This document shows, piece after piece, positions 1 to 60,500 of a DNA stretch of 64,000 bases (positions are counted from its first letter, which is position 1; every line of letters begins with the position of its first letter). The notes below the pieces were generated by a model. The model was not told the DNA's origin and did not search any database. It saw nothing but the letters and a program-made list of their open reading frames with translations. Source of the stretch: Candidatus Udaeobacter sp. (lineage in GTDB: Bacteria; Patescibacteriota; Patescibacteriia; Magasanikbacterales; GWA2-37-8); the NCBI GenBank assembly GCA_035473115.1, contig DATION010000002.1, positions 169,374 through 233,373 on the forward strand, read 5' to 3'. Position numbers and translations under genes: made by a program.

Positions 1-226
1 AATTGCTTTCCGCAAAGAAGCTGTGCAAAAAGCAATACAAAATAGCCAAGGAAATGGCTGGATAGCGATCGATGAAGAAATTGAACTAGCCAAAAAAAAT
101 ATAAAAAAAACAGAGAACCTTGAAGTCTCGTTTAATAGCGCCTTATCTATAGCCGGCCTAAAACTGGCTTTGCAAAATAATTGGAAATTTAATGGATCAG
201 TAGTCTGTATATTAACAGGGCTTTAA
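1..226 (+). CDS. thrC: C-terminal fragment of a PLP-dependent threonine synthase-like enzyme (gene begins upstream of window)
   Basis: Frame is open from the window edge. The C-terminus ...SVVCILTGL resembles the threonine synthase C-terminal TGxGLKD region. Confidence 0.4.
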   Translation, partial: IAFRKEAVQKAIQNSQGNGWIAIDEEIELAKKNIKKTENLEVSFNSALSIAGLKLALQNNWKFNGSVVCILTGL

Positions 227-313
227 TACTAACAGAACAGCTTGCAAAAGAGAACTGCTAGCACAGACATAATCTCTGCTCTCTTTTGCGTTCTTACAGC
301 TTGCCGGTACAAG

Positions 314-640
314 TTATTGCACATAGAGAGTTACAGCCCTTTGCTCGCCATCTCCACCACACAAACAGAGACAAGTTAGGTAATAGCTGGATGTAACCGT
401 CGGGTTGACGAACATATAGCCAACCGCCGGCAAGGTTTCTTTCTGCGACAGTCCTTGGCAGATCACATAGGTGCCGAACCTGCTTGCATCCCACTCGATT
501 AAGGCTCTATCTCCTTTCTTTATGGTACTTGGCTTGACAGTTAGAGAAATTGTGTCAGTTGGATCATTTCCCTTGTCGTCATCAACGACGCAAGAAGATA
601 CTGCCAGACCAACTAGAACACAAAAAAGTAATCTTTGCAT
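314..640 (-). CDS. small secreted lipoprotein, hypothetical
   Basis: N-terminal signal peptide with lipobox LAVSSC. Lies in a high-GC island (approx 294-1560). Confidence 0.5.
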   Translation of the reverse strand: MQRLLFCVLVGLAVSSCVVDDDKGNDPTDTISLTVKPSTIKKGDRALIEWDASRFGTYVICQGLSQKETLPAVGYMFVNPTVTSSYYLTCLCLCGGDGEQRAVTLYVQ

Positions 641-837
641 GGTTGTTCTCCTCTTGGTTTAGAATACCCTAGAGAATAGTTATTTGGCAAGTCATTAAAC
701 GATCTTTCATTTTCCTACTTGTAAGAGGTAAGAATATAAATGGATCGTGCGAGCTTCCGAGAGCTCGCACCTGGAGCTCGGACTGCATAGCCTTGCTTCG
801 CCATTGGCGAATCAGGCACATGCCGTGTCCAAGCTGA

Positions 838-1521
838 CTACTGGGGCGTTCCTCCAGTCTTCGGAGCGACTGAGAAAGGAAAGAGGAGCCTTGAGGTTTT
901 GTTACCGGAACCGCCGATGGTCACGGCCGTTCCGGTGTCGTTTTTCCTTCCAGTGAAGAGATCGGTTTCCGTAACCACATGGACAGTCAGACGGCGATCA
1001 GTCGCTGCGAGCTGAGCTGCCAACTTGGTGTTGGCGTACCTCAGACCAGCGATGTCTGCAGTCGTTTTCTCCGCGCCGGCCTTTAGCTCGGCGACGTCTG
1101 CTGTTGCCTGGTCGGCGCTTGCCTTCACCTCGGCGACGTCTGCTGTTGCCTGCTCAGCCGCGGCTTGAGCCTTGGCAGCATCGGCGACACCTTGGTCAGC
1201 GATCACTTTGGCGGCCGCGGCATCGGCGACGCCTTGGTTGGCCGTGGTTTGGGCGGCCGCGGCGGCAGTGGTAGCGGCCGCGGCGTTCGCGGTAGCCTTG
1301 GCAGCTTCGGCCTTGGCATTGCTGGCCATCGTCTGAGCTTCAACGATTTGCGCATTGAGCCCATTGTACGCCGTTGCAGCGATCAAGATGAGAATAGCCG
1401 CTCCGGCGACAACACCTGCGATCCAGACGATGACCTTCTTGTGATCGGAGGAGCCTCGAACCTCCATGGTCTGCGACGGATCCGGGCTGGACGAGAGATT
1501 CGGGTCAGGGTTTGGCGACAT
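838..1521 (-). CDS. membrane-anchored Ala-rich coiled-coil repeat protein, hypothetical
   Basis: One TM helix followed by 14-residue periodic A/D/Q-rich repeats. AAGGAG lies 9 nt upstream of the ATG at 1521; the ORF could extend to TTG at 1542. High GC. Confidence 0.5.
   Translation of the reverse strand: MSPNPDPNLSSSPDPSQTMEVRGSSDHKKVIVWIAGVVAGAAILILIAATAYNGLNAQIVEAQTMASNAKAEAAKATANAAAATTAAAAAQTTANQGVADAAAAKVIADQGVADAAKAQAAAEQATADVAEVKASADQATADVAELKAGAEKTTADIAGLRYANTKLAAQLAATDRRLTVHVVTETDLFTGRKNDTGTAVTIGGSGNKTSRLLFPFSVAPKTGGTPQ
1088..1261. repeat. 42-nt (14-codon) tandem repeats inside the coiled-coil gene
   Basis: Units at 1088-1111 and 1130-1153 are near-identical, as are units at 1178-1219 and 1220-1261. 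Confidence 0.7.
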
Positions 1522-1663
1522 GGCTGGTAGCTCCTTCTTCAAAATGTTGTGATTTTGCCTGGGTCAACATGACTCAAGCAGTTGCGTTTTCATTTGAATC
1601 ACCACCGATAACCAGTGGTGATTCCAATTAAAAAGGCAACCAAAACATCTTTTATAACTTTAA

Positions 1664-1692
1664 AGTATACCACAAATTTAACCTTTTGTCAA
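1664..1692 (-). promoter_or_regulatory. sigma70-like promoter, TTGACA-17-TATACT with TGn extension
   Basis: Minus strand reads TTGACAaaaggttaaatttgtggTATACT, directed at the 838-1521 gene. Confidence 0.45.
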
Positions 1693-1725
1693 GATTAAAC
1701 CCAATTTTTTGGCTAATTTAAACTA

Positions 1726-1750
1726 AAAAGTAAGTCTTGTTAGACTTACT
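1726..1750 (-). terminator. intrinsic terminator hairpin overlapping the stop of the giant gene
   Basis: 10-bp perfect stem aagtaagtct/agacttactt followed by a T-run on the minus strand. Confidence 0.5.
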
Positions 1751-4700
1751 TTTGTAATCTTAACCAATCCGTAATATCTTCTGGTTTTTGTTTAGCCAAT
1801 CTGATGACTTCGTTCTGACTATGCTTCTCTGTTGTTCCATCTCTATGTAAAGAAACTAGAACTTGGCCATCTTTGGTATCTTGAGAGGTAAACGTAGCAT
1901 CCTTATCATAAATCAATATATCTTTTCCTTCTTCAGGATCATAAACTCGAGCTGCATGACCACCTTTGGTTAGTATCGGTGCAACTTCTGTATTTACGTC
2001 TCTAGACAATACTAAATTCCAATCTTCGTCATTTTTACCAAGCATGGTATCACTAAAAGTTTTTAACCAATCAGATTTATGAAGTGTGAATTCTTTTTCC
2101 GCATTTAGCACATTCCCGATCATGCTTAGATTTTTACCGTCTAGTTGAAAGCTATTAATTTTATTTTGCAGAAAATCCATGGCATTAGCTCTTAAAATTA
2201 GGTTATTCTGTAATTGATCGGTAGCTGCTTCTAGCATTTTATTATATGTACCCAAAAATTCCTTTTTGTTACTCCCTTGAGTTTCCAAAAAGTTACTGAA
2301 CTTTGTTTGATAATCCGCTTCCGGATTTTCAGTAGCCGGAGCATTAGTTTTTTCTGCAACTGGTAAGTGCTCTGCAGTTGCTCTTGCTGTTTCTGGCTTT
2401 GCTTCAGGGTTCGGAATTTGATTATCGACAGCTGTAGTAGTTCTTGATTCGTTATCTTTATGTTCAATTACAGGGGATTTTTCTTCTGAAATTTTTTCTG
2501 CAGGAACTTCATTTACAGGTTGAGTGCTGGCTGGAGCTTGTTCAACTGCTGGCACTACCGAAGAAGCTTTGGCTGGAGGCAAATCATTTGTCCCATAAAC
2601 ATGCAGAGTTTTTTCTACATAAATCGGCTGTTCGTTTTCAGAAATTTGCGTTGCCGCACCATCAGCATTAGAATTTGATCTTGATCCAGCTTGCGCAGCG
2701 CTATATGGAGTTTCAATCTTGGAGATTTCGGCTGCTGCCTTCGGATTATGGTCACCGAATCTGCGTTCTATATCCCTTTCTAAAGCAGCTTTATGCTCAG
2801 CTTTTAGAGTATCAAATCTCTGTTTATCAGCTTCATAATCTTTATCTGTATAAATTGCGGCTTTCGGAGCTTTATTATTGTTTGGTATTGGTTCCCAATC
2901 TTTATCTGTAGCCTCTGTTTGTTCTTTGGAACTCATCTGGTCCACACTTACATAGCCGCTCTTCTTTTCACCGGCAATACCACTTAAAATAGGTTTTTTG
3001 TCTTCTGCTCCAAAGTACATTACTTTGCCATGAACATGATTATCAACAGCTGCTTTATCACCTTTGGCATCGGCTTCTAGTCGGTTATAAGCTAAATTTG
3101 TAGTTTCTGCTCCCTGCTCAGCATAAAACAAACCTTTTTGATTTTCTACAGAACTATTATAATCTTTAACAAAATTATCATAATCTAATTTTCCGTTATG
3201 AATGTACTTCTCCGGTAAATGGGTTAAATGCTGAAAGCTAAAATGCTGATCTTTTAAATACTGAATAGCTAAAGCTTCGCCACCTTCTTGTTTCAATAGT
3301 TCTTCAAAAATAACCTGGCGGCGTTCTCCTCCACTGGCATCTAAAGTTTCAATTTTTCCGATAAACTTATGATGGGAATGAACACCGGCGCCAACTTCAC
3401 TGGCTTTTAAAATATTTTTTATTGATTCTTCGTTATTTAATGCTGGATAATCATGAACTAACTTTTGCACCGCATCGGCATATTCTTGACTAAGTTTATT
3501 CTCAACCGCAAAATGCTCTAAAGAAAAATTAGTTTTTACTTCAGGTGTTGAATCTCCAACAGTTTCTGTCTTATTAACAACCTCAGGAGCTTTTTCTGCC
3601 GCAGCATGATCCGGAGTAATGTTTACCGGCGATTGATCTGCTCTTGCCGGTGCTGTTGCTTCGGCTGCAGGTCGGGCAGTTTCTGATCCAGAGGCTTGGT
3701 TTGGTACTTCTCCAGATCGAGGCGCTGCTACTGGTGATTGCTCCGGAGCAGAGGTAACAGCCGATCGGGATTGTTCTGGAGCTACGGTTGCAACTGAACG
3801 ATCTGTAGGCGTAGTGATATTTGGATTTTCTCGGCCAGATAAATGACTACCTATTGGCTGAGTGTTCACTGTATTTCCTGACGGTAAACTTTCTACAGCT
3901 GTTCTTCCACCAACAACTGCAGCTCCACCTGCAGCTGCTCTAACTTCTGGTTTAGTTAAGTGTTCAGACGCAGAATTTTCTGGTTGCAAATTATCTGCAG
4001 AGTCTTTATGACCGGTAAGTATTTCTGAAGGATGAGTAATTAAATGACCGGCGTGCTGCCAACCTTGGACAATATGCTTTGCATTTTCAATAGGATCAAG
4101 ATTATAAATTATTGCACCAGCTCCTCGTTCTTTTAATTCATGCAAAAGTCTATCTATACTGTTTCCCGGTGCCTCAAAACCATGTAAAGCCATACCGGTA
4201 ATACCAAAAGCGCGGGCAACGGTGCCGGCTGCTTTGATAAATTCGATAGTTCTGCGTTTTGCTCCCAACTGTTCTTTACTAAATACTCCCAGTGTTATGC
4301 CATGAGCAGTTTCTGTAGCCGCAGCCACCAAAATATCTTTATAACTAAGTTCTTTCTCCGGCTCTCCGGCAACATCATTTTTAGTTTCCTGAGCATGTTT
4401 TCTTTTAGCTTTACTTATTCTTTCCGCCACAGCCACACCGGCATACATTACACCGCGCAACACAGACATACCCGTAGCTGTAAGAGCAAGATTGGCTACG
4501 TCTCTGGCAATTTTTATACCGGAAACTTTGCTCTGTACATAATTATCCAAAACTTTTTGTATCTCTTCTTCTCTTTCTTTTTTAACTTCATCTGCAGCTT
4601 CTCGGTGTTTTTGAGAAATTTCAAGCAGTTTATCAAGCAAAGCGGCTTTAGCTTCAGGAGTAATTCTGGAAGACTCGATTTTTTCTTTTAATTCACTGGA

Positions 4701-6953
4701 ACGTTTTTCAATTTCACCATCGTCATTTCCTTTGAGAGCTTCAGTAAGTGCGCTATACGCTTCAGCGATTATTTCTTTAGCTTTTTTTCCTCTCTGCCAT
4801 TCGGCCAAATCGCCTCCTTGTCCTAAGCCTACTTTGCCAGCACCCAAACGTACCACATCAGAAATAATTTTTACACCCAATACAGAAGTGACGGTGTTAT
4901 AACCGGTTTCCAAAGCAATTTTTCCCACTTCACGATTAAAAATAGCGTCTTTAAGCTTCTTGCCGCCTTCGGCTATTCTGGTAAACAAACCTTTTGGCAT
5001 TGGTCTTGCAACAAATTCCTCTAATTTAGCTTTATTAGCTTGGTCTAAAATATTTAACCCTTGGATAGCCTCGTCTAAATCACTTAAATCCTGAGCTGTG
5101 GCTCTATTGTCTGGGTCTGAATAAGTACTTAATCTTTGTTCAATCTCTATGGCTATCTGATTGGCTCTGCCTATGCTATCTGTAAACACTCTCCATTCTT
5201 TTATTTTAACTTTTTTTGGCCACTGTTCATTCTCACGCAAAGCATCTTCTAAAGCCATGAGTTCTTTTATAAAATCATTTCTTTTTAAAATCTCTTCAAA
5301 TCTACTATCAATTTCTGCTGCCGAAACTTCTTCATCTTCTCGGGGCTCATCCACCACAGGTTCTCTTTTTGTAAATTCAGTCAGCGTAGCTTTAATTTCT
5401 GCATTTAAATCATTCCATGATTGCATTTTCTCTTCAAAAGTTGCGTCATCATAAATTCTGGCGTTATCTGAAATTTCTGTTCTTATCTCTTGCGCTCTAT
5501 CTCGTTTAGCCCTAACATCATCCCACTCTTTTGTAGTAATTTGTTTTGGAGGCTCGCTAGTTAAACATGCATGCGCCAGATCTCTTATCTCCGTATTAAA
5601 GGTTTGATCTAAAACTCTTTCCATTCTCTTGTTATAAACATCAAAACTAACTCTTTTATTAATTTTTTTAAGATAATTTAAAATCTTTTCAATAACCGAA
5701 TTCAAATCGGCTAATTTTTTTTCAAAATCAGCATCACTGTCTGTTTTTAATTCATTAGCAATTGCCGCTGTTTTTACGTTTAGTTCATTTTCAATATATG
5801 TATTTATTTGTATCTGTTCTTCTCGTGTACATTTTGGTTTAAATACTACACCTACAAGATCACTGATTTCTTTGATTGCAGGATCTGTAGCTGCGACTTT
5901 TTTTAATCTTTGACCTTGTATTTCTTTAGTAATTTCTGTTTTCTTTTCTGGCTTAGGCTCTCTCTCTTTAATCTCTGTCAGCAAATCTATAATTCCCTTG
6001 CCTAAAAAATTCAATTTTGAAATTTCTTCTGTTAACTCTATATCTGTCACTGTATCTACTTTCGCTTCAATTTCCAACTTTAATTTCTCTAATTCGTCTC
6101 GTTTGGCCATAATAGGCACAATATCGGTTTGTGTGTACTTGCCTTTATGTTCCGGGTAAGCCAATTCGGCCATTGCTTTAATAATTGGCTGAATTAAAGT
6201 GGAATATTCATCATCTATCCGCTTTAGGCGCTGATCGTGAATTTTTTGCTGTTCAGCTTTTTCAGCAGCCGCTTTTAACTCTGCGACCTCATCTTCTCCG
6301 GCTTTTAAAAGCAGGCCTCTATTTTCGGTAAACTCAACATTTTCCGGATCAAGTTTATCATAAAACTTATCAAGTTCTGCCTGAGGTTTTTCTCCTCTTT
6401 TTTCCATTCCAACTAAATCTTCTAATTGTCCTAATTTTACTATAAAAGTTTGGTATGGTTCGGCAAACTTTGCGACATTTTTAAGATTTAATAATCTTTT
6501 TAGTTTTTCCAAATCTTTCTGATAATTAGCGCGATTACCCTGGGTCTTTTTAGCTAAATTATGTTTTTGCATGAACGCAAAAATATCCTCTACCCTTTTT
6601 TTGGCATGAAGATAGTCAATATTAGCCGCTTCAAGCTGCAGAACTTCCGGCTCCGGCGGTTTTTCCATCTCTGCTTTTACCTTTAAAATATCTGCATCTA
6701 TTTTTTTGCGTTTTTTGTCATTATTAGAACCTTTACCATTCAGGTCTTTAATATTTCCAAGTACAGTACCAATTTCTTTTAATAATTTTGCTCTTTTCGG
6801 ATCTTCTGGGTGCAATCGTTCAATTTCAGCTTTTATACCTAAAGCTGCTTTTTGTTGCTCGGCAAAAAATCCTTCCTCTACTTTTACTTTGGTTTCCTTA
6901 TTAAATTCTTTCTCTCGAGGATCTTCTCTGTCCTCGCGTTCAGTTTTAGCCAT
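1746..6953 (-). CDS. giant 1735-aa protein with Lys/Glu-rich coiled-coil N-terminal half, Gly-rich hydrophobic helices, Ser/Pro/Ala/Thr linker and unknown ~600-aa C-terminal domain
   Basis: Single uninterrupted ORF with no recognisable catalytic motif. The central segments GxxxG/AxxxG resemble the glycine-zipper membrane-interacting helices of tape-measure or toxin-translocation proteins. Confidence 0.8.
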   Translation of the reverse strand: MAKTEREDREDPREKEFNKETKVKVEEGFFAEQQKAALGIKAEIERLHPEDPKRAKLLKEIGTVLGNIKDLNGKGSNNDKKRKKIDADILKVKAEMEKPPEPEVLQLEAANIDYLHAKKRVEDIFAFMQKHNLAKKTQGNRANYQKDLEKLKRLLNLKNVAKFAEPYQTFIVKLGQLEDLVGMEKRGEKPQAELDKFYDKLDPENVEFTENRGLLLKAGEDEVAELKAAAEKAEQQKIHDQRLKRIDDEYSTLIQPIIKAMAELAYPEHKGKYTQTDIVPIMAKRDELEKLKLEIEAKVDTVTDIELTEEISKLNFLGKGIIDLLTEIKEREPKPEKKTEITKEIQGQRLKKVAATDPAIKEISDLVGVVFKPKCTREEQIQINTYIENELNVKTAAIANELKTDSDADFEKKLADLNSVIEKILNYLKKINKRVSFDVYNKRMERVLDQTFNTEIRDLAHACLTSEPPKQITTKEWDDVRAKRDRAQEIRTEISDNARIYDDATFEEKMQSWNDLNAEIKATLTEFTKREPVVDEPREDEEVSAAEIDSRFEEILKRNDFIKELMALEDALRENEQWPKKVKIKEWRVFTDSIGRANQIAIEIEQRLSTYSDPDNRATAQDLSDLDEAIQGLNILDQANKAKLEEFVARPMPKGLFTRIAEGGKKLKDAIFNREVGKIALETGYNTVTSVLGVKIISDVVRLGAGKVGLGQGGDLAEWQRGKKAKEIIAEAYSALTEALKGNDDGEIEKRSSELKEKIESSRITPEAKAALLDKLLEISQKHREAADEVKKEREEEIQKVLDNYVQSKVSGIKIARDVANLALTATGMSVLRGVMYAGVAVAERISKAKRKHAQETKNDVAGEPEKELSYKDILVAAATETAHGITLGVFSKEQLGAKRRTIEFIKAAGTVARAFGITGMALHGFEAPGNSIDRLLHELKERGAGAIIYNLDPIENAKHIVQGWQHAGHLITHPSEILTGHKDSADNLQPENSASEHLTKPEVRAAAGGAAVVGGRTAVESLPSGNTVNTQPIGSHLSGRENPNITTPTDRSVATVAPEQSRSAVTSAPEQSPVAAPRSGEVPNQASGSETARPAAEATAPARADQSPVNITPDHAAAEKAPEVVNKTETVGDSTPEVKTNFSLEHFAVENKLSQEYADAVQKLVHDYPALNNEESIKNILKASEVGAGVHSHHKFIGKIETLDASGGERRQVIFEELLKQEGGEALAIQYLKDQHFSFQHLTHLPEKYIHNGKLDYDNFVKDYNSSVENQKGLFYAEQGAETTNLAYNRLEADAKGDKAAVDNHVHGKVMYFGAEDKKPILSGIAGEKKSGYVSVDQMSSKEQTEATDKDWEPIPNNNKAPKAAIYTDKDYEADKQRFDTLKAEHKAALERDIERRFGDHNPKAAAEISKIETPYSAAQAGSRSNSNADGAATQISENEQPIYVEKTLHVYGTNDLPPAKASSVVPAVEQAPASTQPVNEVPAEKISEEKSPVIEHKDNESRTTTAVDNQIPNPEAKPETARATAEHLPVAEKTNAPATENPEADYQTKFSNFLETQGSNKKEFLGTYNKMLEAATDQLQNNLILRANAMDFLQNKINSFQLDGKNLSMIGNVLNAEKEFTLHKSDWLKTFSDTMLGKNDEDWNLVLSRDVNTEVAPILTKGGHAARVYDPEEGKDILIYDKDATFTSQDTKDGQVLVSLHRDGTTEKHSQNEVIRLAKQKPEDITDWLRLQK

Positions 6954-6964
6954 AATAAAAAAAA

Positions 6965-7246
6965 TTAAGCAATGGAATCAAGTTCCTTAATTGCGTCTTC
7001 ATTTATTTGATCTATTTTTTCCTGGTACTTTTGATCTATATTTTTTAGATCATCAGCCAACTGTTTATCCGCGCTTTTGGTGGCAGCCTGCAAATAACTT
7101 GTTTCCAAAATATTAGTTAGGTCTTCCAGTTGCGCTTCGGTCATTTCGGGCAGCAAAGCAAGCAGAGCCTCTCGCTCCTGTGCAGACATATCTAGAGAAG
7201 CAATCAAGAAACCAAGTTTTTTGCCTTTCTCTTCTGCCGATGACAT
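6965..7246 (-). CDS. small acidic helical protein, hypothetical; immediately upstream of the giant gene
   Basis: 93-aa ORF with a 12-nt gap to the giant gene on the same strand. Confidence 0.5.
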   Translation of the reverse strand: MSSAEEKGKKLGFLIASLDMSAQEREALLALLPEMTEAQLEDLTNILETSYLQAATKSADKQLADDLKNIDQKYQEKIDQINEDAIKELDSIA

Positions 7247-7273
7247 ATTACAAATAATTAAATTAATAAAGGC

Positions 7274-8320: not shown

Positions 8321-8356
8321 AATTAAAATATATTATTATAACTACTAAGGCTTCAC

Positions 8357-9148: not shown

Positions 9149-9158
9149 ATATGTTTAC

Positions 9159-9195
9159 TGTCATCCCGAGCGAGGTCTTAACCGACGAGGGATCT
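9159..9195. repeat. TGTCATCC...GGATCT dispersed repeat, copy A
   Basis: tgtcatcccgagcgagg...cgacgagggatct. Shares termini with the copies at 11612, 35585 and 37330. Confidence 0.6.
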
Positions 9196-9347
9196 ACACA
9201 TTTTAGATAATAATAGCTTATTTTTTAACAAAAAGCAAACCGCCTAAAAATAACAGTGCCTTCGGGTTGTGAAGCCGAAGGCGGAACGAACACAAGCAGC
9301 CGTGGACTGTGGCGAACGCTGTGCGGGAGCAGTGATTGATGGAGTTA

Positions 9348-10013
9348 CTAGAAGACCTGCGGCCTTCTGCTTCCTTGCCGATAAATACAAGCTCGCGGTT
9401 CCCATTCCTCTAGCTGTTCTATCGGGAAGAACATCTCGCAGTTGCCTTTTTGGTGAAGCACGATCACATCATCAACATCTGTCATTGCTGAATCCAGAAT
9501 AACATTCACTCTCGGCAACCTACCTTCGGCTGCCTGAGATTCAGTACCTGCAAACAAACGCACCTTATCACAGTACAAGCTTTCGCTTGGTCGCCTGCAC
9601 TCACCCGGCTTGAAAGCAATAGTTACGTCAAAGGTAACTTCTGCATCCTCAGGAGCTTGGAAATAGAACATGTTACGGTTACCATCAACCGTATTCAGGT
9701 AGACAAAATCTACGCTAAAGCCACCGTTTACGTTGATGACACTGGCTCCGACCCTGGGCCAACCTCCCGAAGGTGGGTTTACCACTTCTAGGTGGTACAC
9801 CTTCATGATTTCTGGCGGGGTTCCCGCATCTGCTGGCACTCCCGTATCCTCCACACTGGCACCTGCCGGCACTGCGGCATCCCTCATCTGGATGTCTGGT
9901 AACACTTGCGTTTCATTATCCTTGCCTTTACACCCGTCTGCCATGATCAACGCAATGATCACAGCCGCAACGATAATGAGCGACTTCCTTGAGAGGTTCT
10001 GCAGCATGCGCAT
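9348..10013 (-). CDS. secreted lipoprotein, hypothetical (Cys-containing, elevated GC)
   Basis: Signal peptide with lipobox LIMADGC. AAGGAG SD 4 nt before the ATG. A TTGACA-17 promoter-like sequence lies upstream. Confidence 0.65.
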   Translation of the reverse strand: MRMLQNLSRKSLIIVAAVIIALIMADGCKGKDNETQVLPDIQMRDAAVPAGASVEDTGVPADAGTPPEIMKVYHLEVVNPPSGGWPRVGASVINVNGGFSVDFVYLNTVDGNRNMFYFQAPEDAEVTFDVTIAFKPGECRRPSESLYCDKVRLFAGTESQAAEGRLPRVNVILDSAMTDVDDVIVLHQKGNCEMFFPIEQLEEWEPRACIYRQGSRRPQVF

Positions 10014-10170
10014 TGAACTCCTTTAAATTGATACCAGAACCGTTCTGGCAAACGCCGCCAACTAATAGGCGGACAAAATAAAGTACCATAAAAGTAATTT
10101 TTTGTCAAAGGTAATTTATGTAAAATAACGATGAATTGCTTTTGCAATAAGTTTCTGCTAAAATGCAAAA

Positions 10171-10617: not shown

Positions 10618-11009
10618 GGGGTGCCGGGCCTTCGACAGAAGCTCCTGGCTACACTGGCATACCGAGGCGGCTCGCAGCCTTGTAAAAAACAGAGCAATAT
10701 AATAAGTGCAAACTTATTTACAAAAGCTAAAGTTGCTGTAGCAAATTTATTTGCTGTTAGCGCTTTCGCTCCGGTAATGGCTTAATACCCAATACCCATC
10801 GCGCCAATGATACTCTGTAATTGGTTAGCGGTGTCACTAACAGAGAGTAGTTCTGCCGCAGTGTCGTCTGCGACAAAATGAAATTCCAACGACTCGTCAA
10901 TGCAATTTTCGTCCCCTTCTATTGCGTTGACTAAAAAACAAGGGACACTAAGTATGTAGAAGGTTTAGTCAAAGTTATCTACACGCGAGTTCAACTCTCG
11001 CCACCTCCA
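10617..11009 (+). ncRNA. ssrA: tmRNA (ssrA)
   Basis: The 5' GGGGGUG pairs with the 3' CACCUCC to give an acceptor stem with a G3:U70 pair. A T-arm gcgag-ttcaact-ctcgc precedes it. It lies directly after smpB. The candidate tag ORF ends ...FAPVMA-TAA at 10783-10785. Confidence 0.7.
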
Positions 11010-15071: not shown

Positions 15072-15172
15072 TTGCTATTACTTTAATAATATATATTTTC
15101 ACCGGAAAATGGACAATAAAACAATATTGTTCATTTTCCTGCGAAAATGCAGGGGAAGGGATTGAAGAGCCA

Positions 15173-15505
15173 ATGGCAGAAAAACTGGCTGAAAACGGTG
15201 ATCACATCGTGCTGACTGGAGATACCGACGTAGGCACGGGGATGGAGAGAGCCGTTGTATTCCACCATAACGGCACCTCCAGCAACGTCCTCGTATCGGA
15301 AGGTGGCAAGGGCGGACAGGACTTCTTCATGGAGCCATGCGGTGAGTTCGGCTACATGGAGACAGGCGTTGGTCACGTCCGTGTTGGCAGCGGACACAAC
15401 GGTCCTCCGTTGGTGAACTGTTCCGCGTTCCGCCAGCGGATCGTGGACATGTTCGGCGAGCACCCGCTCGATCCGAGCCACCCTGACAACCAGCACCGCG
15501 CCTAA
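15173..15505 (+). CDS. hypothetical protein in high-GC island (strand uncertain; an overlapping minus ORF 15131-15550 exists)
   Basis: ~60% GC island. The upstream consensus promoter favours the plus strand. No homology recognised. Confidence 0.3.
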   Translation: MAEKLAENGDHIVLTGDTDVGTGMERAVVFHHNGTSSNVLVSEGGKGGQDFFMEPCGEFGYMETGVGHVRVGSGHNGPPLVNCSAFRQRIVDMFGEHPLDPSHPDNQHRA

Positions 15506-15667
15506 CCCCCTTTCACGTTCAGGTAGACCGCAGTTCTCACGCTCATTCATGAGGCAAGCGGTGCAACAGCTCTGTTCGCTCCACTTGTTTGCAAGTTAAA
15601 ATTTGACTTTCAAACAGGGAGGATTATTAGCGAACAGAGTTTTTGTTTATCAGATATTTTTAATTAA

Positions 15668-27708: not shown

Positions 27709-28383
27709 ATGGAAACCAATAAACCATTTGCCGGGGATAAAAAAGTTTCTATTTCTTTATTTGGAAAATTAGAAAAAAAGCTTGTAGAAAAATACGTAGA
27801 TAAAATTCCGCAAAAAATCGAAACGTATCACCTTACTCTGTCCACTATGGCCTGGTGCGCTTTCATTGTTTTATTCGGCTACTTGGCTGGTCACTATAAC
27901 ATCCATTGGCTTTGGGGCACTTCTATCATGATAGTTTTTCAATACTTAACAGATCTGTTTGACGGAGCTGTTGGCCGGCACCGCAACACCGGCTTAATAC
28001 ATTGGGGATATTACATGGACCATTTTTTGGATTATATTTTTCTTTGCTCGATTTTAATCGGCTACTCTTTTATATATAACGACAAATATAACACTGCCTT
28101 TTTTATCCTAGTTAGCTACGGAGCTTTTATGGTAAATTCATTTTTATCATTTGCCGCCACCAACGAATTTCGAATCTCTTATTTCAAAATCGGACCAACT
28201 GAAACCAGATTAGCTTTTATTATTACCAATACTTTAATTACATTCTTTCATGGACACGTACCTCTGGCCCGCACTTTACCCTATATATTTGGTTTATCTA
28301 TCATAGGGCTAACGGCTGTTGTATATACAACTCAAAAACTTATCTGGGAAAAAGATATGAAAAATAAAAAATCTCTTAATTAG
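27709..28383 (+). CDS. CDP-alcohol phosphatidyltransferase family protein
   Basis: Motif DLFDGAVGR...G....D (DxxDGxxAR...G...D) and polytopic. Confidence 0.75.
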   Translation: METNKPFAGDKKVSISLFGKLEKKLVEKYVDKIPQKIETYHLTLSTMAWCAFIVLFGYLAGHYNIHWLWGTSIMIVFQYLTDLFDGAVGRHRNTGLIHWGYYMDHFLDYIFLCSILIGYSFIYNDKYNTAFFILVSYGAFMVNSFLSFAATNEFRISYFKIGPTETRLAFIITNTLITFFHGHVPLARTLPYIFGLSIIGLTAVVYTTQKLIWEKDMKNKKSLN

Positions 28384-28397
28384 CCAAAATTATACTA

Positions 28398-28429
28398 TTG
28401 ACAAATCAGCAATTTTGTGCTATTATAAT
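28398..28429 (+). promoter_or_regulatory. sigma70 promoter TTGACA-17-TATTAT(AAT)
   Basis: TTGACAaatcagcaattttgtgcTATTATAAT. The leader contains the palindrome tgagtttgaaactca. Confidence 0.5.
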
Positions 28430-28544
28430 TTGTTGTTTAGTGAGTTTGAAACTCATATTGACCCCAGCCGAGACAAGCGTTTCGGCGAGTCAAAGGGGTT
28501 TTAACCGCTTTCAACACACTCAGAACCATACAGAGGAGAACACC

Positions 28545-28916
28545 ATGAAGACCGCCCTTTTCGTCACGATCGTCGCCCTGGCCACCACCTTCGGGGGGTG
28601 TGTCATCGACGACATCCAGTTCCGCCCGACCTTCTGCAGCGGCGATCGGTCGCTCGAAGGTCCGTGGACCTGCAGCTGCTCCGGCAGCGCCTGCCACTCG
28701 GACGAGCCGAGCGCCCAGGATGTCGCCACGTGGAGGCCGGTCATCAAGATCGAGCCCAACGAGGAGGAGACCATGTGCGTCATGTCCGCAGAGCGACACT
28801 TCAGTGTCGACTATGCGACCACGCACATGCACGTGGAACTGGACCAATCCGGTTCGAAAAAAATGACCCTGACCTTCGCCACCGATGACGGTCGGCAGTT
28901 CACCTGCACCAGGTGA
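28545..28916 (+). CDS. small Cys-rich secreted lipoprotein, hypothetical (high-GC island)
   Basis: GAGGAG SD 6 nt before the ATG. Signal peptide with lipobox TFGGC. ~63% GC against ~36% flanks. Confidence 0.65.
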   Translation: MKTALFVTIVALATTFGGCVIDDIQFRPTFCSGDRSLEGPWTCSCSGSACHSDEPSAQDVATWRPVIKIEPNEEETMCVMSAERHFSVDYATTHMHVELDQSGSKKMTLTFATDDGRQFTCTR

Positions 28917-29000
28917 CTCCGCCTCCATCCATTTCCGCTCCGGAACGCTTGACGTTCTGCCAGCGGACGCTGTCACGACGCCTCGTGACCAACACAAAAA

Positions 29001-47205: not shown

Positions 47206-48039
47206 CTAGAATGGTATTTCAGCCTGGAGAAACCCTCCAAATAACCACTTATTTTTTTTGACCAAACCTCCGTTTAGTTTAAAAGAGAGTTTGAAGTTTT
47301 CTCCATTCCATTTGATTCCGGGAACAAGCGATCCGGAGTTTGCCCACTTTTCAATAACCCGATTAACTATCTTTGTTTGATCAACTTTCAAGATCTCAAG
47401 AAGATGTCTCGTTTCTTCATCAACATTGAAGCGAAACACCATATGAATTCTTTGGTATGAGGCGCCAAAGATAAAAGAGAGGTTATGCCATCCAGACTGG
47501 ATTTCAACACCTGCCTCAACATTCCCCATTTCTAATCTACCATTACTAGATAGACGACCAGCCGCTAAATATGTAAGATCTACAGGCCCATTACCGAAAT
47601 CGTAACTCACTGCTTGCAATTCAAATCTGTTGGCATTGGCGATTTCCACTCCCGCCAACACAAAAAGTTCTACAGATTGATGGACTTTGAACGAAGCTCC
47701 CAACGATTCCATAATGCCCATAGTTCTATAGGCGGCGGCACCGCTCAAGTCAGAAGTCAGATAGGAGACATCCAGCGTACCATAACTAATAGCCGACTCC
47801 ATTGCTAGAGTCAGCCAGGAGCGCCTATTGTAGTTGCATCTAACCCCTAGAGACAGGTTTTTTCTGTCTAAATTCCCAGCTCCGCTATCTCCACTGAACT
47901 CACCAGCCAAGTATTGAGCCTGACTGTAGATGCTGCACCAAGTTCTTCTTTCGTCAGTTTTGTCTTCAGCCCAAGTGGTGCGGACTGTGACAAGAATGAC
48001 TAGACAGGTAAACAGTTTTATCAAAGAGCGGCTCTTCAT
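47206..48039 (-). CDS. secreted beta-barrel-like protein (OMP-like C-terminal motif)
   Basis: Signal peptide. Alternating hydrophobic pattern ending ...GGFLQAEIPF with a terminal Phe. ~48% GC. Confidence 0.5.
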   Translation of the reverse strand: MKSRSLIKLFTCLVILVTVRTTWAEDKTDERRTWCSIYSQAQYLAGEFSGDSGAGNLDRKNLSLGVRCNYNRRSWLTLAMESAISYGTLDVSYLTSDLSGAAAYRTMGIMESLGASFKVHQSVELFVLAGVEIANANRFELQAVSYDFGNGPVDLTYLAAGRLSSNGRLEMGNVEAGVEIQSGWHNLSFIFGASYQRIHMVFRFNVDEETRHLLEILKVDQTKIVNRVIEKWANSGSLVPGIKWNGENFKLSFKLNGGLVKKNKWLFGGFLQAEIPF

Positions 48040-54070: not shown

Positions 54071-54213
54071 AGAAAAATATTTTATATAGATTTCAATTAT
54101 ATATGAAAAAATAAAACTTAACAAGTGTTTAAAAAAAACAAAACCGGACACGTTGTCCGGGGTTGACTCTCTTTTTTTGGAGAGTCGCTGTGTCGCTCTT
54201 GGCGACTAAGGTA

Positions 54214-54984
54214 CTACTGATCGATGGCTGTGCCGAATTCCTGCTGCGGCTCTGCAGACACTAGCCGAGCACTGGTGCCCGGAAAGTTTGGGTCACAGCT
54301 GGTCGACCCATTATCGCAGAGATCCCGCACATCGGCGGCTGTCATCAGCAGTGTGTGATGGGACAAACTCATCAGACCGGGCGTATCTGGAGGAAATCCG
54401 GAAAAATCTTCGTCCAGGTGAACTGCGCCGCCCGTGTGACAGAGTTCATGTCCTACCACATCGGCAACAGCAGAACCAAAATAAGTCCAGGCACAACTCG
54501 ATCCCACCGGACAAGAAGGAGCGATGGGGAAAAAGATAAATATGTTCTTATCCCCCTCTGCATTGTAATACCCTAGAGTTCGCTCGCCGCCTAGCTTGGC
54601 CATCTTGTAAGCGAACATATCCCGTCCCGCTTGGGTTGGGTATTCCTTGTCCGTGGGTATCCAGAAAACACACCTACCTTTTACCTGTTTGCTTTCCTTT
54701 GTTCCATAGAAAGCATCGGGTAGAATACCGGCAAGCCGGAAAAGTGGTTGTTGACCTTTCCTATTCCTGACATTGGCGTCAATGTCTTTCAGAGCCAGCT
54801 TCACCTGATAGGCGAAGGCTTCTCCATCCAAATAGGTCCCAAAGGCTTTTCCTGGATCACCACAGATGTAGATATCAACAGTCTGGTCACGGCTCAACTC
54901 CTCCCAGGGAGGAATGTCCAGGACACACGCCTGGCCAAGCAAGGCGAAACAAACCACAATAACCACAAAAATCCAGTTCTTCAT
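54214..54984 (-). CDS. secreted metzincin-type zinc metalloprotease lipoprotein (high-GC island)
   Basis: Lipobox LLGQAC. Exact metzincin motif HELCHTGGAVH (HExxHxxGxxH). AGGAGG SD. ~57% GC. Confidence 0.7.
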   Translation of the reverse strand: MKNWIFVVIVVCFALLGQACVLDIPPWEELSRDQTVDIYICGDPGKAFGTYLDGEAFAYQVKLALKDIDANVRNRKGQQPLFRLAGILPDAFYGTKESKQVKGRCVFWIPTDKEYPTQAGRDMFAYKMAKLGGERTLGYYNAEGDKNIFIFFPIAPSCPVGSSCAWTYFGSAVADVVGHELCHTGGAVHLDEDFSGFPPDTPGLMSLSHHTLLMTAADVRDLCDNGSTSCDPNFPGTSARLVSAEPQQEFGTAIDQ

Positions 54985-55045: not shown

Positions 55046-55074
55046 CTTATACCACAAAATAAGGCTTTTGTCAA
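55046..55074 (-). promoter_or_regulatory. sigma70 promoter TTGACA-17-TATAAG with TGn extension
   Basis: Minus strand reads TTGACAaaagccttattttgtggTATAAG, ~60 nt 5' of the metzincin ATG. Confidence 0.5.
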
Positions 55075-55149
55075 GCCTTATTTGCATTATTTTGGCTAAT
55101 CTAAAGCCAAAAAATGATCAGTTCAAAAAACTTAAGCTACTTTCCAAAG

Positions 55150-59779: not shown

Positions 59780-60012
59780 ACAGATCGGGGTTAATAAATA
59801 AACTATATAGCTATCATAGCACGTTTGTTAATTAACATAAACAAAAATTCACCAAATATAATTAACTAAACAAACTAACCTTGACAAAACTATATTTTTA
59901 CAGTATATTAATTTATTATTTTCCAATGTTTAAGACTCTTATTGACCCTTACCGAATCTAGTTTTCGGTAGTCAAAGGGGTCTTAACAAAACACATTACG
60001 GCGAGGATCATC

Positions 60013-60369
60013 ATGTCCACCAAAACTGTTACCGTTGTTCTCTCTACCATGGGCTGTCCCAAGACTGGCATGCCTGCAGGAATCGAAATTGGCCAATTTC
60101 AGACAACAACCAACAATAATGGGAGCCAATCTACAAGTAACTGGCCAGAAGGGTTTCCATCCAAAAGGACTGGCCGGCAAGTCATAGACAACTGCATCAT
60201 CTTCGCTGCTATGGCAGGCGTAGACCGATCAATTTTCGAGGCATGGCGTCCTATTCTTGAAGCTTGTGGCCTGCCCGAGCAATCGCAACACGATTCGGTC
60301 TTCGACGCCTATGCGCGACAGACACACTTCACACATATGGAGCACGTGTTCGCCAGTCCGGCGGCATGA
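60013..60369 (+). CDS. hypothetical protein (high-GC island)
   Basis: GAGGA SD before the ATG. ~57% GC in a ~35% background. No motif recognised. Confidence 0.45.
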   Translation: MSTKTVTVVLSTMGCPKTGMPAGIEIGQFQTTTNNNGSQSTSNWPEGFPSKRTGRQVIDNCIIFAAMAGVDRSIFEAWRPILEACGLPEQSQHDSVFDAYARQTHFTHMEHVFASPAA

Positions 60370-60500
60370 ACCGATCTCACGCAAGCACGCAGAAGGTGAT
60401 GATGCGAGAATGAAGAAGCACTCGCCGTCCAACACCTTTTTACAAATAAAATTTGTTTGTAAAAAAGTGACGGTGAACTTCTTTATAAAAAATATAATAC

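What the first reader, a model, noticed from the sequence alone, without database searches (positions are those of the whole stretch)
294..1560. High-GC islands encoding secreted proteins scattered through a low-GC genome
Discrete segments of ~55-65% GC are embedded in ~35% GC DNA at approximately 294-1560, 9270-10020, 15130-15560, 28545-28916, 54214-54984 and 60013-60369, with a milder case at 47206-48039. Almost all encode signal-peptide or lipobox proteins (lipoproteins, a metzincin, a beta-barrel-like protein, a coiled-coil anchor). Several are driven by near-consensus native-style promoters (TTGACA-17-TATAMT, often with TGn) and strong SD sequences. They therefore look domesticated and not like assembly chimeras. 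This suggests repeated acquisition of surface or secreted proteins from a high-GC donor (host or neighbour), or a distinct compositional class of effector genes.
Basis: seen in the sequence. Interest (0 to 1): 0.65.

Follow-up and report, generated by a model that had tools for sequence, protein, structure and literature searches.

The report
Persistently GC-rich surface-protein genes in a CPR bacterium
Six short GC-rich stretches in this AT-rich genome of an ultra-small (Magasanikbacteria) bacterium are real, strongly promoted single genes, mostly for cell-surface proteins. They look like members of a clade-wide class of genes that stays GC-rich over long evolutionary time, not recent imports from a GC-rich donor.

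Summary
The GC spikes are real. Six segments (742-1534, 9254-10011, 15149-15584, 28460-28990, 54144-54946, 60141-60436; GC 0.52-0.61 against 0.39) exceed every shuffle, and two independently assembled contigs match them base for base. About half of the excess comes from synonymous codon choice. Two claimed cases (314-640, 47206-48039) are not significant.

Each island is a stand-alone unit: native near-consensus promoter, hairpin leader, Shine-Dalgarno site, one Pfam-less gene, and a GC-rich 3' tail of 62-96 nt ending at or shortly before a terminator. Four of the six genes encode lipoproteins or membrane-anchored proteins.

By SecA and synteny the organism is a Magasanikbacterium (CPR), not "Udaeobacter".

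No high-GC donor was found. The three searches run gave self-hits only, plus two distant homologues. One homologue lies in the same synteny block of another Magasanikbacterium. It is also a GC island behind the same promoter, although neutral sites between the two genomes are nearly saturated.

Eighty related genomes carry 55 similar islands. All 20 ORFs tested there lack Pfam domains, and three diversity-generating-retroelement (DGR) targets in relatives are GC-rich beside AT-rich reverse transcriptases.

Best reading: a maintained, GC-rich class of fast-evolving surface genes. The cause of the GC-richness is unresolved.

The parts
742..1534 (-). GC-rich block A (GC 0.61), covering CDS 838-1521 and a 96-nt GC-rich 3' tail (742-837, GC 0.60) with GC-rich hairpins
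   Evidence: Maximal segment LLR 95.5. UTR composition. Sequence.
838..1521 (-). Gene for a 227-aa membrane-anchored, alanine-rich coiled-coil protein. ATG at 1521 follows a GAAGGAG Shine-Dalgarno site. Layout: Pro/Ser-rich N-terminus, one TM helix, Ala-rich stalk with three 14-aa repeats (DNA 1049-1174), small C-terminal domain.
   Evidence: Translation. 42-nt x3 repeat. GC1/2/3 0.63/0.54/0.66. Codon-choice z = 9.3. No Pfam or NCBIfam family. Logan gene call of 227 aa.
1664..1716 (-). Promoter of island A: TTAGCCAAAA box (1707-1716), TTGACA-17-TATACT with TG (1692-1664). A leader hairpin GAATCACCAC..GGTGGTGATTC follows at 1596-1625.
314..640 (-). 108-aa lipoprotein gene (lipobox LAVSSC) with a weak promoter of its own. 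It lies next to island A but is not significantly GC-rich (GC 0.46).
9254..10011 (-). GC-rich block B (GC 0.52). CDS 9348-10013 encodes 221 aa with an N-terminal signal/anchor ..ALIMADGC. The 94-nt 3' tail has GC 0.59. Terminator hairpin at 9246-9282. Promoter TTGACA (10108-10103) with TGn and a weak -10.
   Evidence: (z = 5.2).
15149..15584 (+). GC-rich block C (GC 0.59). CDS 15173-15505 on the + strand (110 aa, no signal peptide). The 79-nt GC tail ends in a long-loop terminator at 15571-15648.
   Evidence: sequence. Perfect 12/12 promoter at 15043-15071 on +. The antisense ORF 15131-15550 starts directly after the neighbouring gene's terminator and has no promoter. GC1/2/3 0.66/0.41/0.70. 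z = 8.2.
28460..28990 (+). GC-rich block D (GC 0.61). CDS 28545-28916 encodes a 123-aa Cys-rich lipoprotein (lipobox TFGGC, GC3 0.85). About 85 nt of 5' leader and 80 nt of 3' tail are GC-rich. A native AT-rich terminator follows at 28996-29030.
   Evidence: (z = 11.5). Self-hit only among 5.8e9 proteins.
28361..28505 (+). Promoter-plus-leader module, copy 1: TTAGCCAAAA 28380-28389, TTGACA-17-TATTAT 28398-28426, and a three-helix leader hairpin at 28447-28505.
   Evidence: Local alignment to 59838-59987 scores 95 against shuffles of 25 +/- 3.6. Fold z = -3.1. A-U to G-C compensatory change in P1.
54144..54946 (-). GC-rich block E (GC 0.53). CDS 54214-54984 encodes a 256-aa lipoprotein (lipobox LGQAC) with HELCHTGGAVH, which fits the metzincin motif HExxHxxGxxH. 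62-nt GC tail. Terminator at 54131-54160.
   Evidence: z = 6.4. Homologues P0024 and P0026. Only sub-threshold metzincin matches in PDB and Pfam.
55046..55099 (-). Promoter of island E: TTAGCCAAAA 55090-55099, GGCTTGACAAAAGCC, and TTGACA-17-TATAAG with TGn (55074-55046). It is conserved in the orthologous locus L136.
60141..60436 (+). GC-rich block F (GC 0.55). ORF 60013-60369 (118 aa) has no codon periodicity (GC1/2/3 0.52/0.50/0.52) and only a degenerate lipoprotein-like N-terminus. It may be a decaying gene. NCBI did not annotate it.
   Evidence: z = 4.0.
59838..59987 (+). Promoter-plus-leader module, copy 2: TTGACA-17-TATATT 59881-59909 and the three-helix hairpin at 59930-59987.
47206..48039 (-). 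277-aa secreted protein gene claimed as a 'mild' island. It is not significantly GC-rich and is vertically inherited, with ~30%-identical homologues at the syntenic site in relatives.

Best explanation
The GC-rich segments are genuine, stand-alone, strongly promoted transcription units. Each carries one lineage-specific (Pfam-less), fast-evolving gene, most often for a cell-envelope protein: a lipoprotein, a membrane-anchored coiled coil, or a metzincin-like lipoprotein.

They belong to a class of GC-rich genes found throughout Candidatus Magasanikbacteria (CPR/Patescibacteria). In relatives this class also includes the target genes of diversity-generating retroelements (DGRs).

Shown:
- The islands are real, coding, and natively promoted.
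- Similar islands are widespread in the clade.
- One window island has an ortholog that is still GC-rich at the same locus, behind the same promoter, in a genome whose neutral sites are nearly saturated relative to this one.

Inferred:
- The GC-richness is actively maintained, not a fading trace of recent import from a high-GC donor.
- The other five window islands belong to the same class. This rests on shared architecture and promoter module only.

Most likely cause (speculative, about one chance in four): a GC-biased process tied to frequent recombination or allele replacement at hypervariable surface-protein loci. It would act on the whole variable segment, including the 3' tail, and not on the conserved flanks. 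Selection on the transcript (for example mRNA stability) and repeated intra-CPR exchange are the alternatives.
For: 1. Real and coding.
- LLR 18-96 against a shuffle maximum of 15.
- Synonymous-codon excess z = 4-11.5.
- Codon periodicity, SD-ATG starts and lipoboxes.
- Logan contigs 100% identical across all six islands.

2. Native expression signals.
- CTTGACAAAA occurs 4 times in 64 kb, and all four are island promoters.
- TTAGCCAAAA occurs 4 times, three of them upstream of island promoters.
- Across window plus relatives the TTAGCCAAAA-N-TTGACA module is followed by GC-rich DNA in 6 of 10 cases, against 4% expected.
- A near-consensus promoter lies upstream of 15% of GC-rich ORFs against 4% of ordinary ORFs (odds ratio 4.1, p = 0.0013).

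3. No donor.
- Self-hits only in 5.8e9 proteins for 54214 and 28545.
- Nothing in phages, plasmids or viral contigs.

4. Orthology with persistent GC.
- The exhaustive HMMER scan finds only P0024 and P0026.
- P0024 lies in L136 within the same gene block: ABC ATPase 84%, ABC2 82%, GST 66%, SWIB 89%, DEAD helicase 85%, SecA 81% amino-acid identity.
- Its gene is GC 0.55 with GC3 0.61, against neighbours' GC3 of 0.27-0.38, behind a conserved promoter.
- P0026 (L137) has GC 0.58 with flanks of 0.28. A second GC-rich lipoprotein gene (GC3 0.81) follows it.
- Four-fold degenerate sites between window and L136 are 34% identical against 27% expected at random. Passive amelioration should therefore have erased about 70% of any excess since the split. 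GC3 of 0.61 would then need an impossible ancestral value above 1.

5. Clade-wide.
- 55 islands in 1.43 Mb from 80 genomes.
- 20 of 20 best-frame island ORFs have no Pfam hit, against my tally of about 66% of ordinary window genes with one, counted from the Logan Pfam tables.
- Several GC-rich families are conserved among relatives and keep their GC excess at 30-57% identity.
- A GC3 0.95 gene (L036) has homologues only in unnamed metagenome contigs and named Magasanikbacteria MAGs (P0013; P0017 in GCA_023246665.1). It is a DGR target there: GC3 0.84 and 0.92 beside reverse transcriptases with GC3 0.31 and 0.53. A third DGR is in L044.
Against: - Orthology with persistent GC-richness is shown for one of the six window islands only. 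The others have no known homologues, so their membership of the class rests on shared architecture.
- The closest SecA relatives (L051, L005, L004, L045) lack the 54214 gene at that junction. That also fits gain and loss, or transfer.
- Codon patterns of the extreme cases (A3 0.01-0.06, C3 above G3) are exactly what genes from 65-70% GC genomes look like.
- GC-richness extends into non-coding 3' tails, as an imported fragment would.
- The saturation argument assumes a simple substitution model. An independent replacement by a distant allele from a GC-rich source would evade it.
- No mechanism for maintenance was demonstrated.
- Known bacterial GC-biased gene conversion effects are much weaker than GC3 of 0.85-0.95 (my knowledge; cf. 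PMC4450053).
Confidence: 0.55

Rival explanations
1. Recent, independent single-gene horizontal transfers ('moron'-like islets) from unsampled high-GC donors. Each landed behind, or later recruited, a native promoter, and each is now at a different stage of amelioration.
For: - GC3 up to 0.85 in the window and 0.96 in relatives, with codon patterns typical of high-GC genomes.
- The GC-rich block includes non-coding tails.
- The proteins are ORFans.
- The islands lie at synteny breakpoints and are absent from the closest relatives at the one locus that could be compared.
- The organism carries type IV pilus genes (PilM, pilin, prepilin peptidase). Such genes are commonly linked to DNA uptake in CPR bacteria (my knowledge; no competence gene was identified here).
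Against: - No donor was found in the three protein searches run (two islands) or in the phage, plasmid and viral collections.
- The only homologues of 54214 are in AT-rich Magasanikbacteria. One is syntenic, shares the promoter, and is still GC-rich despite near-saturated neutral divergence.
- 0 of 20 island ORFs in relatives have Pfam domains. That is unexpected for random imports from well-sampled high-GC phyla.
- GC-rich families are conserved inside the clade.
- No integrase, att sites, flanking repeats or tRNA targets.
Confidence: 0.3
2. The GC-richness is selected at the level of protein or transcript. Ala/Gly/Pro/Arg-rich secreted proteins would combine with selection for GC-rich, RNase-resistant, long-lived mRNAs for abundantly expressed surface proteins.
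For: - About half of the GC excess is amino-acid composition.
- The promoters are the strongest class in the window. The same upstream box precedes rpoB in L132.
- Every unit has a 5' leader hairpin and a GC-rich structured 3' tail. So the whole transcript is GC-rich, not only the CDS.
Against: - Ribosomal protein L20, an expected highly expressed gene, shows only z = 2.1.
- GC3 of 0.85-0.96 would mean using the genome's rarest codons.
- There are no expression data.
- Two islands (15173, 60013) are not secreted.
- 5' UTRs are near native GC (0.33-0.45).
Confidence: 0.1
3. Artefact or non-coding. The islands would be assembly or binning chimeras, or GC-rich structured RNA genes whose ORFs are accidental.
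For: - GC-rich DNA gives long ORFs in several frames. NCBI and Logan disagree on strand at 15.1-15.6 kb and 28.4-29.0 kb.
- 60013-60369 has no codon periodicity.
- GC-rich islands in AT-rich genomes are a classic ncRNA signature (my knowledge).
Against: - A different assembler gives 100% identical sequence over all islands.
- The same phenomenon appears in 35 of 80 unrelated MAG loci.
- SD-ATG followed by a lipobox or TM segment in four islands, strong codon periodicity in five, and a conserved protein family for one.
- Rfam finds only tmRNA and two tRNAs.
Confidence: 0.03

Closest known systems
Phage 'morons' and single-gene horizontally acquired islets (Hendrix/Juhala concept; amelioration model of Lawrence & Ochman) - from my knowledge
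   Same: An autonomous unit with its own promoter and terminator. Base composition deviates from the neighbours. Often a lipoprotein or surface protein. Inserted between conserved genes.
   Different: The setting is a chromosomal housekeeping context, with no phage or mobility genes. No donor is known. At least one unit is orthologous and still GC-rich in a distant relative, which passive amelioration does not predict.
Variable-protein (target) genes of diversity-generating retroelements
   Same: In relatives the same kind of GC-rich, Pfam-less island is a DGR target, with a VR/TR pair, bAvd and an AT-rich reverse transcriptase (L132, L044, L141). DGR targets are commonly surface-displayed binding proteins (PMC5758913).
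   Different: The window has no reverse transcriptase, no Avd and no VR/TR-like repeat. The island proteins are unrelated to each other and to the DGR-target family.
Integron gene cassettes
   Same: Small, single, mostly ORFan genes with atypical composition.
   Different: The islands are scattered, not arrayed. Each has its own promoter. No attC-like R''/R' sites were seen by eye, and I saw no integrase among the window genes scanned against Pfam. The shared hairpin leader has the wrong arm sequences for attC (attC consensus from my knowledge).
GC-biased gene conversion in recombining bacterial genes (Lassalle et al. 2015, PMC4450053)
   Same: GC3 is raised specifically in genes that recombine. 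The effect does not depend on coding, so it would include UTR tails.
   Different: The reported effect sizes are small (my knowledge). Here GC3 is 0.2-0.6 above background over only 300-800 bp. Recombination was not measured.
Propagated ('mobile') promoters upstream of unrelated genes (Matus-Garcia et al. 2012, from my knowledge)
   Same: A ~150-nt promoter-plus-leader module is duplicated upstream of two unrelated island genes. An upstream box plus an extended promoter recurs at several islands.
   Different: The module also carries a structured leader with a compensatory base-pair change. It was not found outside this genome.

Membership tests
Horizontally acquired genomic islet / moron | Base composition and codon usage deviate from the host genome | tested here: met
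   GC 0.52-0.61 against 0.39. Synonymous-codon z = 4-11.5.
Horizontally acquired genomic islet / moron | Own promoter and terminator | tested here: met
Horizontally acquired genomic islet / moron | Homologues in a plausible donor lineage, with phylogeny discordant with the host | tested here: not met
   Self-hits only. The only homologues of 54214 are in related AT-rich Magasanikbacteria. Nothing in phages, plasmids or viral contigs. Only two of the six proteins had the billion-protein search.
Horizontally acquired genomic islet / moron | Absent from relatives at the syntenic site | tested here: inconclusive
   For 54214: absent in L051, L005, L004 and L045, but present in the same block in L136. 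Other islands could not be compared.
Horizontally acquired genomic islet / moron | Mobility signatures (integrase, att/direct repeats, tRNA target) | tested here: not met
   No flanking repeats. The tRNAs and tmRNA are not adjacent to island borders.
DGR variable-protein gene | VR at the 3' end matching a TR, with differences at TR adenines | tested here: not met
   No such repeat in the 64-kb window. It is met in relatives L132 (13 of 20 differences at TR adenines) and L044. A TR elsewhere on the 234-kb contig could not be examined.
DGR variable-protein gene | Reverse transcriptase and Avd nearby | tested here: not met
   tblastn with the L132 RT and Avd finds nothing in the window.
Bacterial lipoprotein (PROSITE PS51257 rule) | K/R in the first 7 residues, a hydrophobic core, and a lipobox with Cys at position 15-35 | tested here: met
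   Met by 28545-28916, 54214-54984 and 314-640. 9348-10013 fails (Asp at -2). 60013 passes formally but has a weak hydrophobic core. Lipidation itself cannot be tested with these tools.
Metzincin zinc metalloprotease (for 54214-54984) | HExxHxxGxxH zinc-binding motif | tested here: met
   HELCHTGGAVH. The motif is conserved as HELGHAFGAKH and HELGHALGGEH in P0024 and P0026.
Metzincin zinc metalloprotease (for 54214-54984) | Significant match to a metzincin family or fold, including the Met-turn | tested here: inconclusive
   PDB profile hits are all metzincins but at E 0.04-1.6 and over the motif only. Peptidase_M10/Reprolysin matches at E 4e-4 to 0.03 for the two homologues, none for the window protein. 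The AF2 model has pLDDT 40 and is unusable.
Integron cassette | attC recombination site and an integrase/attI platform | tested here: not met
   No shared 3' element between islands. The hairpin arms do not fit RYYYAAC/GTTRRRY (by eye). I saw no integrase among the window genes scanned against Pfam.
Structured non-coding RNA gene | Match to a known RNA family, or structure without coding signal | tested here: not met
   Rfam finds only tmRNA and 2 tRNAs. Codon periodicity and signal peptides argue for coding in five of the six islands.

The most novel reading that the evidence does not exclude
Magasanikbacteria, and perhaps CPR bacteria generally, keep a dispersed compartment of GC-rich, strongly promoted, hypervariable genes for surface proteins and DGR targets. 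On this reading the base composition is actively driven up. The driver could be a recombination-linked or retroelement-linked GC-biased conversion process, or selection on the transcript. Single-gene GC islands in these genomes would then mark the host-interaction or diversification repertoire and not foreign DNA.
Probability: 0.3. Interest if true: 0.85.

Novelty: new variant of a known kind. Interest (0 to 1): 0.62.

Why it matters
Atypical GC is routinely read as horizontal transfer. If a whole clade of ultra-small episymbiotic bacteria maintains GC-rich single-gene islands for its fastest-evolving surface proteins and DGR targets, three things follow.

1. Composition-based HGT calls in CPR genomes are misleading.
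2. A cheap sequence signature would point to the otherwise unannotatable genes that most likely mediate attachment to hosts.
3. It would give a tractable bacterial case for asking what can hold local base composition far from mutational equilibrium: biased gene conversion, retroelement activity, or transcript-level selection.

I found no description of this in the searchable literature.

Tried and rejected
- **Donor search.** Two word-indexed searches of 5.8e9 proteins and one exhaustive HMMER scan gave no non-CPR homologue. tblastn against phages and plasmids and viral-contig scans found nothing.
- **Paralogy among islands.** All-against-all blastp and tblastn found none.
- **Shared mobile-element ends.** There are no direct repeats between or around islands. 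The 3' flanks of the two islands that share a 5' module are not similar. A 'CCAACAC' match at two 3' borders is only a 7-mer.
- **The 60-nt leader hairpin as a wider RNA family.** Rfam gave nothing. A covariance model built from the two copies found no further copy in the window, in 1.44 Mb of relatives, or in L132-L137. The exact-pattern scan of JGI metagenomes returned 47 stretches and the viral-contig scan 2; all looked like chance matches without the inner hairpin or P1.
- **DGR in the window.** No RT, Avd or VR/TR was found.
- **Sense-strand adenine depletion as a retro-mutagenesis footprint.** A3 is below T3 in most island genes, but high-GC genomes show the same, so this is uninformative.
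- **Structure of the metzincin-like protein.** The AF2 model from 3 sequences has pLDDT 40, so I did not run a fold search.
- **Walking along the 234-kb NCBI contig.** Look-ups are limited to window proteins, and end-of-window proteins were not on record.
- **My first crude signal-peptide heuristic.** It was uninformative and I replaced it with the PROSITE lipobox rule.
Full report

The window is 39.0% GC. A log-likelihood maximal-segment scan (0.60 against 0.37 GC) gives six outstanding blocks:

| Block | GC | LLR |
|---|---|---|
| 742-1534 | 0.61 | 95.5 |
| 28460-28990 | 0.61 | 63.5 |
| 15149-15584 | 0.59 | 42.0 |
| 54144-54946 | 0.53 | 30.9 |
| 9254-10011 | 0.52 | 23.2 |
| 60141-60436 | 0.55 | 18.4 |

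The largest value in 100 shuffles was 15.1.

I resampled synonymous codons from the window's own codon usage for each island protein. The GC excess splits roughly in half:
- an amino-acid part of +0.058 to +0.120;
- a synonymous part of +0.054 to +0.171 (z = 4.0-11.5).

For secA, the DEAD helicase and ribosomal protein L20 the synonymous z is 0.8, 0.4 and 2.1. So the islands are a real compositional anomaly, not only Ala/Gly-rich proteins.

Three Logan contig stretches from run SRR9656165, built with a different assembler from the NCBI MAG, are 100% identical to the window. They cover 1-16953, 16313-37707 and 49264-64000, and so all six islands. That makes assembly chimeras very unlikely, although the reads are the same.

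**2. What organism is this?**

NCBI labels the 233,864-bp contig 'Candidatus Udaeobacter sp.'. SecA is 59-90% identical to SecA of 80 genomes, most named Candidatus Magasanikbacteria or Patescibacteria. Many others carry placeholder 'uncultured Gammaproteobacteria' titles. Gene order around secA is conserved with them. The window therefore comes from a CPR bacterium, and the NCBI label is wrong.

**3. Anatomy of an island.**

All six have the same plan.
- An AT-rich native promoter comes first:
  - TTGACA-17-TATAAT is 12/12 at 15043-15071.
  - It is 11/12 with TG at 1692-1664.
  - TTGACA with a TGn-extended -10 precedes the others.
- A leader containing a stable hairpin follows, then a good Shine-Dalgarno site and ATG, and then one GC-rich ORF.
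- Next is a non-coding 3' tail of 62-96 nt that is as GC-rich as the CDS (0.52-0.62).
- GC then drops abruptly to 0.23-0.34, at or shortly before an intrinsic terminator. In the 60013 unit an AT-rich spacer of about 65 nt intervenes.

The 10-mer CTTGACAAAA occurs four times in 64 kb, and all four are island promoters. TTAGCCAAAA occurs four times, three of them 15-25 nt upstream of an island -35.

The gene products:
- **838-1521:** a 227-aa type-II membrane protein with an Ala-rich coiled-coil stalk built partly from three 14-aa repeats.
- **9348-10013:** a 221-aa protein with a signal/anchor.
- **15173-15505:** a 110-aa protein without a signal. The + strand is favoured by the perfect promoter and a downstream terminator.
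- **28545-28916:** a 123-aa Cys-rich lipoprotein with GC3 0.85.
- **54214-54984:** a 256-aa lipoprotein with HELCHTGGAVH, which fits the metzincin motif.
- **60013-60369:** a 118-aa ORF with no codon periodicity, possibly decaying.

None has a Pfam or NCBIfam family.

By the PROSITE lipobox rule, the only convincing lipoproteins in the window are 28545, 54214 and 314-640. Many native-GC lipoproteins in the relatives have a G-A-G-C type lipobox. The island lipoproteins in the window have AVSSC, TFGGC and LGQAC.

**4. Is there a donor?**

None was found.
- The 54214 and 28545 proteins hit only themselves among 5.8 billion proteins.
- Phage, plasmid and viral collections gave nothing.
- The filter-free HMMER scan of 1.84 billion representatives with 54214 found two true homologues, P0024 (35%) and P0026 (28%). 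Both are lipoproteins with HELGHxxGxxH.
- P0024 is encoded on L136, a 40%-GC contig from another sample. That contig carries the same block as the window: ABC ATPase, ABC-2 permease, GST, SWIB, DEAD helicase, MsrA, thymidine kinase and SecA, at 65-89% amino-acid identity.
- There the gene is again a GC island: GC 0.55 and GC3 0.61, against 0.27-0.38 for its neighbours.
- It is preceded by the same promoter, ATTAGCCAAAA...GGCTTGACAAAAGCC...TTTTGTGsTATA.
- P0026 (L137) is GC 0.58 between flanks of 0.28. A second GC-rich lipoprotein gene (GC3 0.81) follows it.

Four-fold degenerate sites in the conserved neighbours are 33.8% identical between window and L136, against 27.4% expected at random. Under a simple model, each lineage should by now have lost about 70% of any compositional excess present at their split. 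A GC3 of 0.61 in L136 would then need an ancestral GC3 above 1, and the window's 0.53 would need about 1.0. Passive amelioration of an old import therefore does not explain this family. Either something keeps it GC-rich, or distant alleles were re-imported independently into the same promoter slot.

**5. The phenomenon is clade-wide.**

In 1.43 Mb around secA from 80 relatives there are 55 islands at LLR >= 20, in 35 loci, with a median length of 513 bp. Their best-frame ORFs have GC3 up to 0.96. All 20 that I scanned lack any Pfam match. By my tally of the Logan Pfam tables, roughly two-thirds of ordinary window genes have one.

Some of these ORFs form families shared between relatives, and every member is GC-elevated at 30-57% identity.

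One GC3 0.95 gene (L036:534-1166) has 13 database hits including itself, that is 12 homologues. All are Pfam-less. The one named hit is from a Magasanikbacteria MAG, and the rest are unnamed metagenome proteins.
- In RIFOXYD1_FULL_40_23 (L132) it is a DGR target. VR 10496-10628 and TR 10993-11125 are 85% identical, and 13 of 20 differences fall at TR adenines. bAvd and an RT lie next to it. The target has GC3 0.84 and the RT 0.31.
- The same arrangement holds in L141 (target 0.92, RT 0.53).
- A different GC-rich target shows it in L044.

The TTAGCCAAAA-N-TTGACA module occurs 10 times in about 1.5 Mb. In six of those the DNA downstream is more than 0.08 above background GC, against 4.3% of random windows. 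Near-consensus promoters are four times more frequent upstream of GC-rich ORFs than of ordinary ORFs (p = 0.0013).

**6. Interpretation.**

The simplest account covering all of this is that the window's islands belong to a lineage-wide class: GC-rich, stand-alone, strongly promoted, fast-evolving, lineage-specific genes enriched for envelope proteins and DGR targets.

What is shown is the class, its architecture, and persistence for one window family plus the DGR-target family. What is inferred is that the other five window islands, for which no homologues are known, are the same kind of thing.

The cause of the GC-richness is not established.
- GC-richness covers the 3' non-coding tail but not the conserved promoter. 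That argues against pure codon-level selection.
- It fits a process acting on the whole variable segment. Candidates are GC-biased repair during frequent allele replacement (cf. PMC4450053), selection on the transcript, or import of the segment as a block.
- Recent HGT from an unsampled GC-rich source remains a serious rival for the extreme cases such as 28545-28916. I give it about 0.3.

**7. Side observation.**

The 28545 and 60013 units share a ~150-nt promoter-plus-leader module: 28361-28505 against 59838-59987, score 95 against shuffles of 25 +/- 3.6. The leader folds into the same three-helix hairpin in both (z -3.1 and -3.9) and has one A-U to G-C compensatory change. Similarity stops exactly at the 3' base of the hairpin, where the unique GC-rich DNA begins. 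I could not find the element elsewhere.

**8. Limits.**
- Only the secA neighbourhood could be compared across genomes.
- Only two island proteins had the billion-protein word search, and one had the exhaustive search.
- Signal peptides were judged by rule, not by a trained predictor.
- No reads, expression data or population data were available.
- The structure prediction failed (pLDDT 40).

Noticed in passing
whole window; NCBI contig with locus tags VLK22_01275-01525: The source MAG is labelled 'Candidatus Udaeobacter sp.' in NCBI. SecA identity (up to 90%) and gene order place it in Candidatus Magasanikbacteria (CPR). Many related MAGs carry placeholder 'uncultured Gammaproteobacteria' titles.
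   Followed up: yes
window 28361-28505 and 59838-59987: A ~150-nt promoter-plus-leader module is duplicated upstream of two unrelated GC-rich genes. The leader is a three-helix hairpin (ATTGACCC..CCGA..TCGG..AGTCAAAGGGGTYTTAAC) with one compensatory pair change. Similarity ends at the hairpin's 3' base. It was not found in Rfam, relatives or JGI metagenomes.
   Followed up: yes
window 1707-1716(-), 28380-28389(+), 55090-55099(-); L136 42-51; L059 14621; L073 18147: A TTAGCCAAAA box lies 13-25 nt upstream of the -35 of strong promoters and preferentially precedes GC-rich genes (6 of 10). A one-mismatch variant (TTAGCTAAAA) also precedes rpoB in L132. It may be an UP-like element or a regulator site.
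   Followed up: partly
L132 10001-12614; L044 601-3352; L141 479-3190: In three Magasanikbacteria DGRs the variable-protein gene is far more GC-rich (GC3 0.73-0.92) than the adjacent reverse transcriptase and Avd (GC3 0.29-0.53 where measured, in L132 and L141). I found no mention of this in the DGR survey I read (PMC5758913).
   Followed up: partly
window 60600-64000: A block of 24-36% GC holds five consecutive minus-strand ORFs (145-302 aa), none with a Pfam hit. An 88-nt intergenic repeat occurs at 60557-64644's first copy 60557-60644 and again at 62964-63051 (72% identical). This is a second, low-GC compositional class. A Logan contig ends just past the window end here.
   Followed up: partly
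window 50400-51390: About 850 bp lie between the SWIB gene and the DEAD helicase. Relatives have only ~190 nt there (L136). GC is 0.49-0.51 (segment 51080-51290, LLR 15.7). It holds a 193-aa plus-strand ORF (50628-51209) without Pfam.
   Followed up: partly
window 1746-6953 (-): A 1735-aa protein rich in charged coiled-coil-like sequence has no Pfam domain. It contains a GC-rich Ala/Pro/Ser low-complexity stretch (3596-3811) and lies directly upstream of island A.
   Followed up: no
window 41261-43021 (-): SecD carries a PPIC-type peptidyl-prolyl isomerase domain inserted in its periplasmic P1 region (residues 168-253).
   Followed up: no
window 23160-26212 and 30569-33124: A type IV pilus gene set is present: prepilin peptidase A24, pilin with N-methylation motif, response regulator and PilM. 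An 851-aa VirD4/TraG-like coupling-protein ATPase lies nearby. Both are relevant to DNA uptake and cell-cell contact in CPR bacteria.
   Followed up: no
window 10171-11012: smpB is immediately followed by tmRNA (10617-11012, 124 bits). The tmRNA promoter (TTGACA-18-TATACT) lies inside the end of smpB. Island B lies divergently upstream of smpB.
   Followed up: no
window 15131-15550 and 28437-28997: Public gene calls disagree on strand in two islands. Logan calls the antisense ORFs and NCBI the sense ones. GC-rich DNA gives long ORFs in several frames, so island proteins in public databases may be partly antisense artefacts.
   Followed up: yes
L137 1-2040: A 2-kb contig from another sample carries two consecutive GC-rich lipoprotein genes. 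Each sits behind an AT-rich spacer with a long perfect leader hairpin (GTGCCTTACCGAATT..AATTCGGTAAGGCAC and CAAACCGTGAATT..AATTCACGGTTTG). This echoes the leader hairpins of the window's islands.
   Followed up: partly
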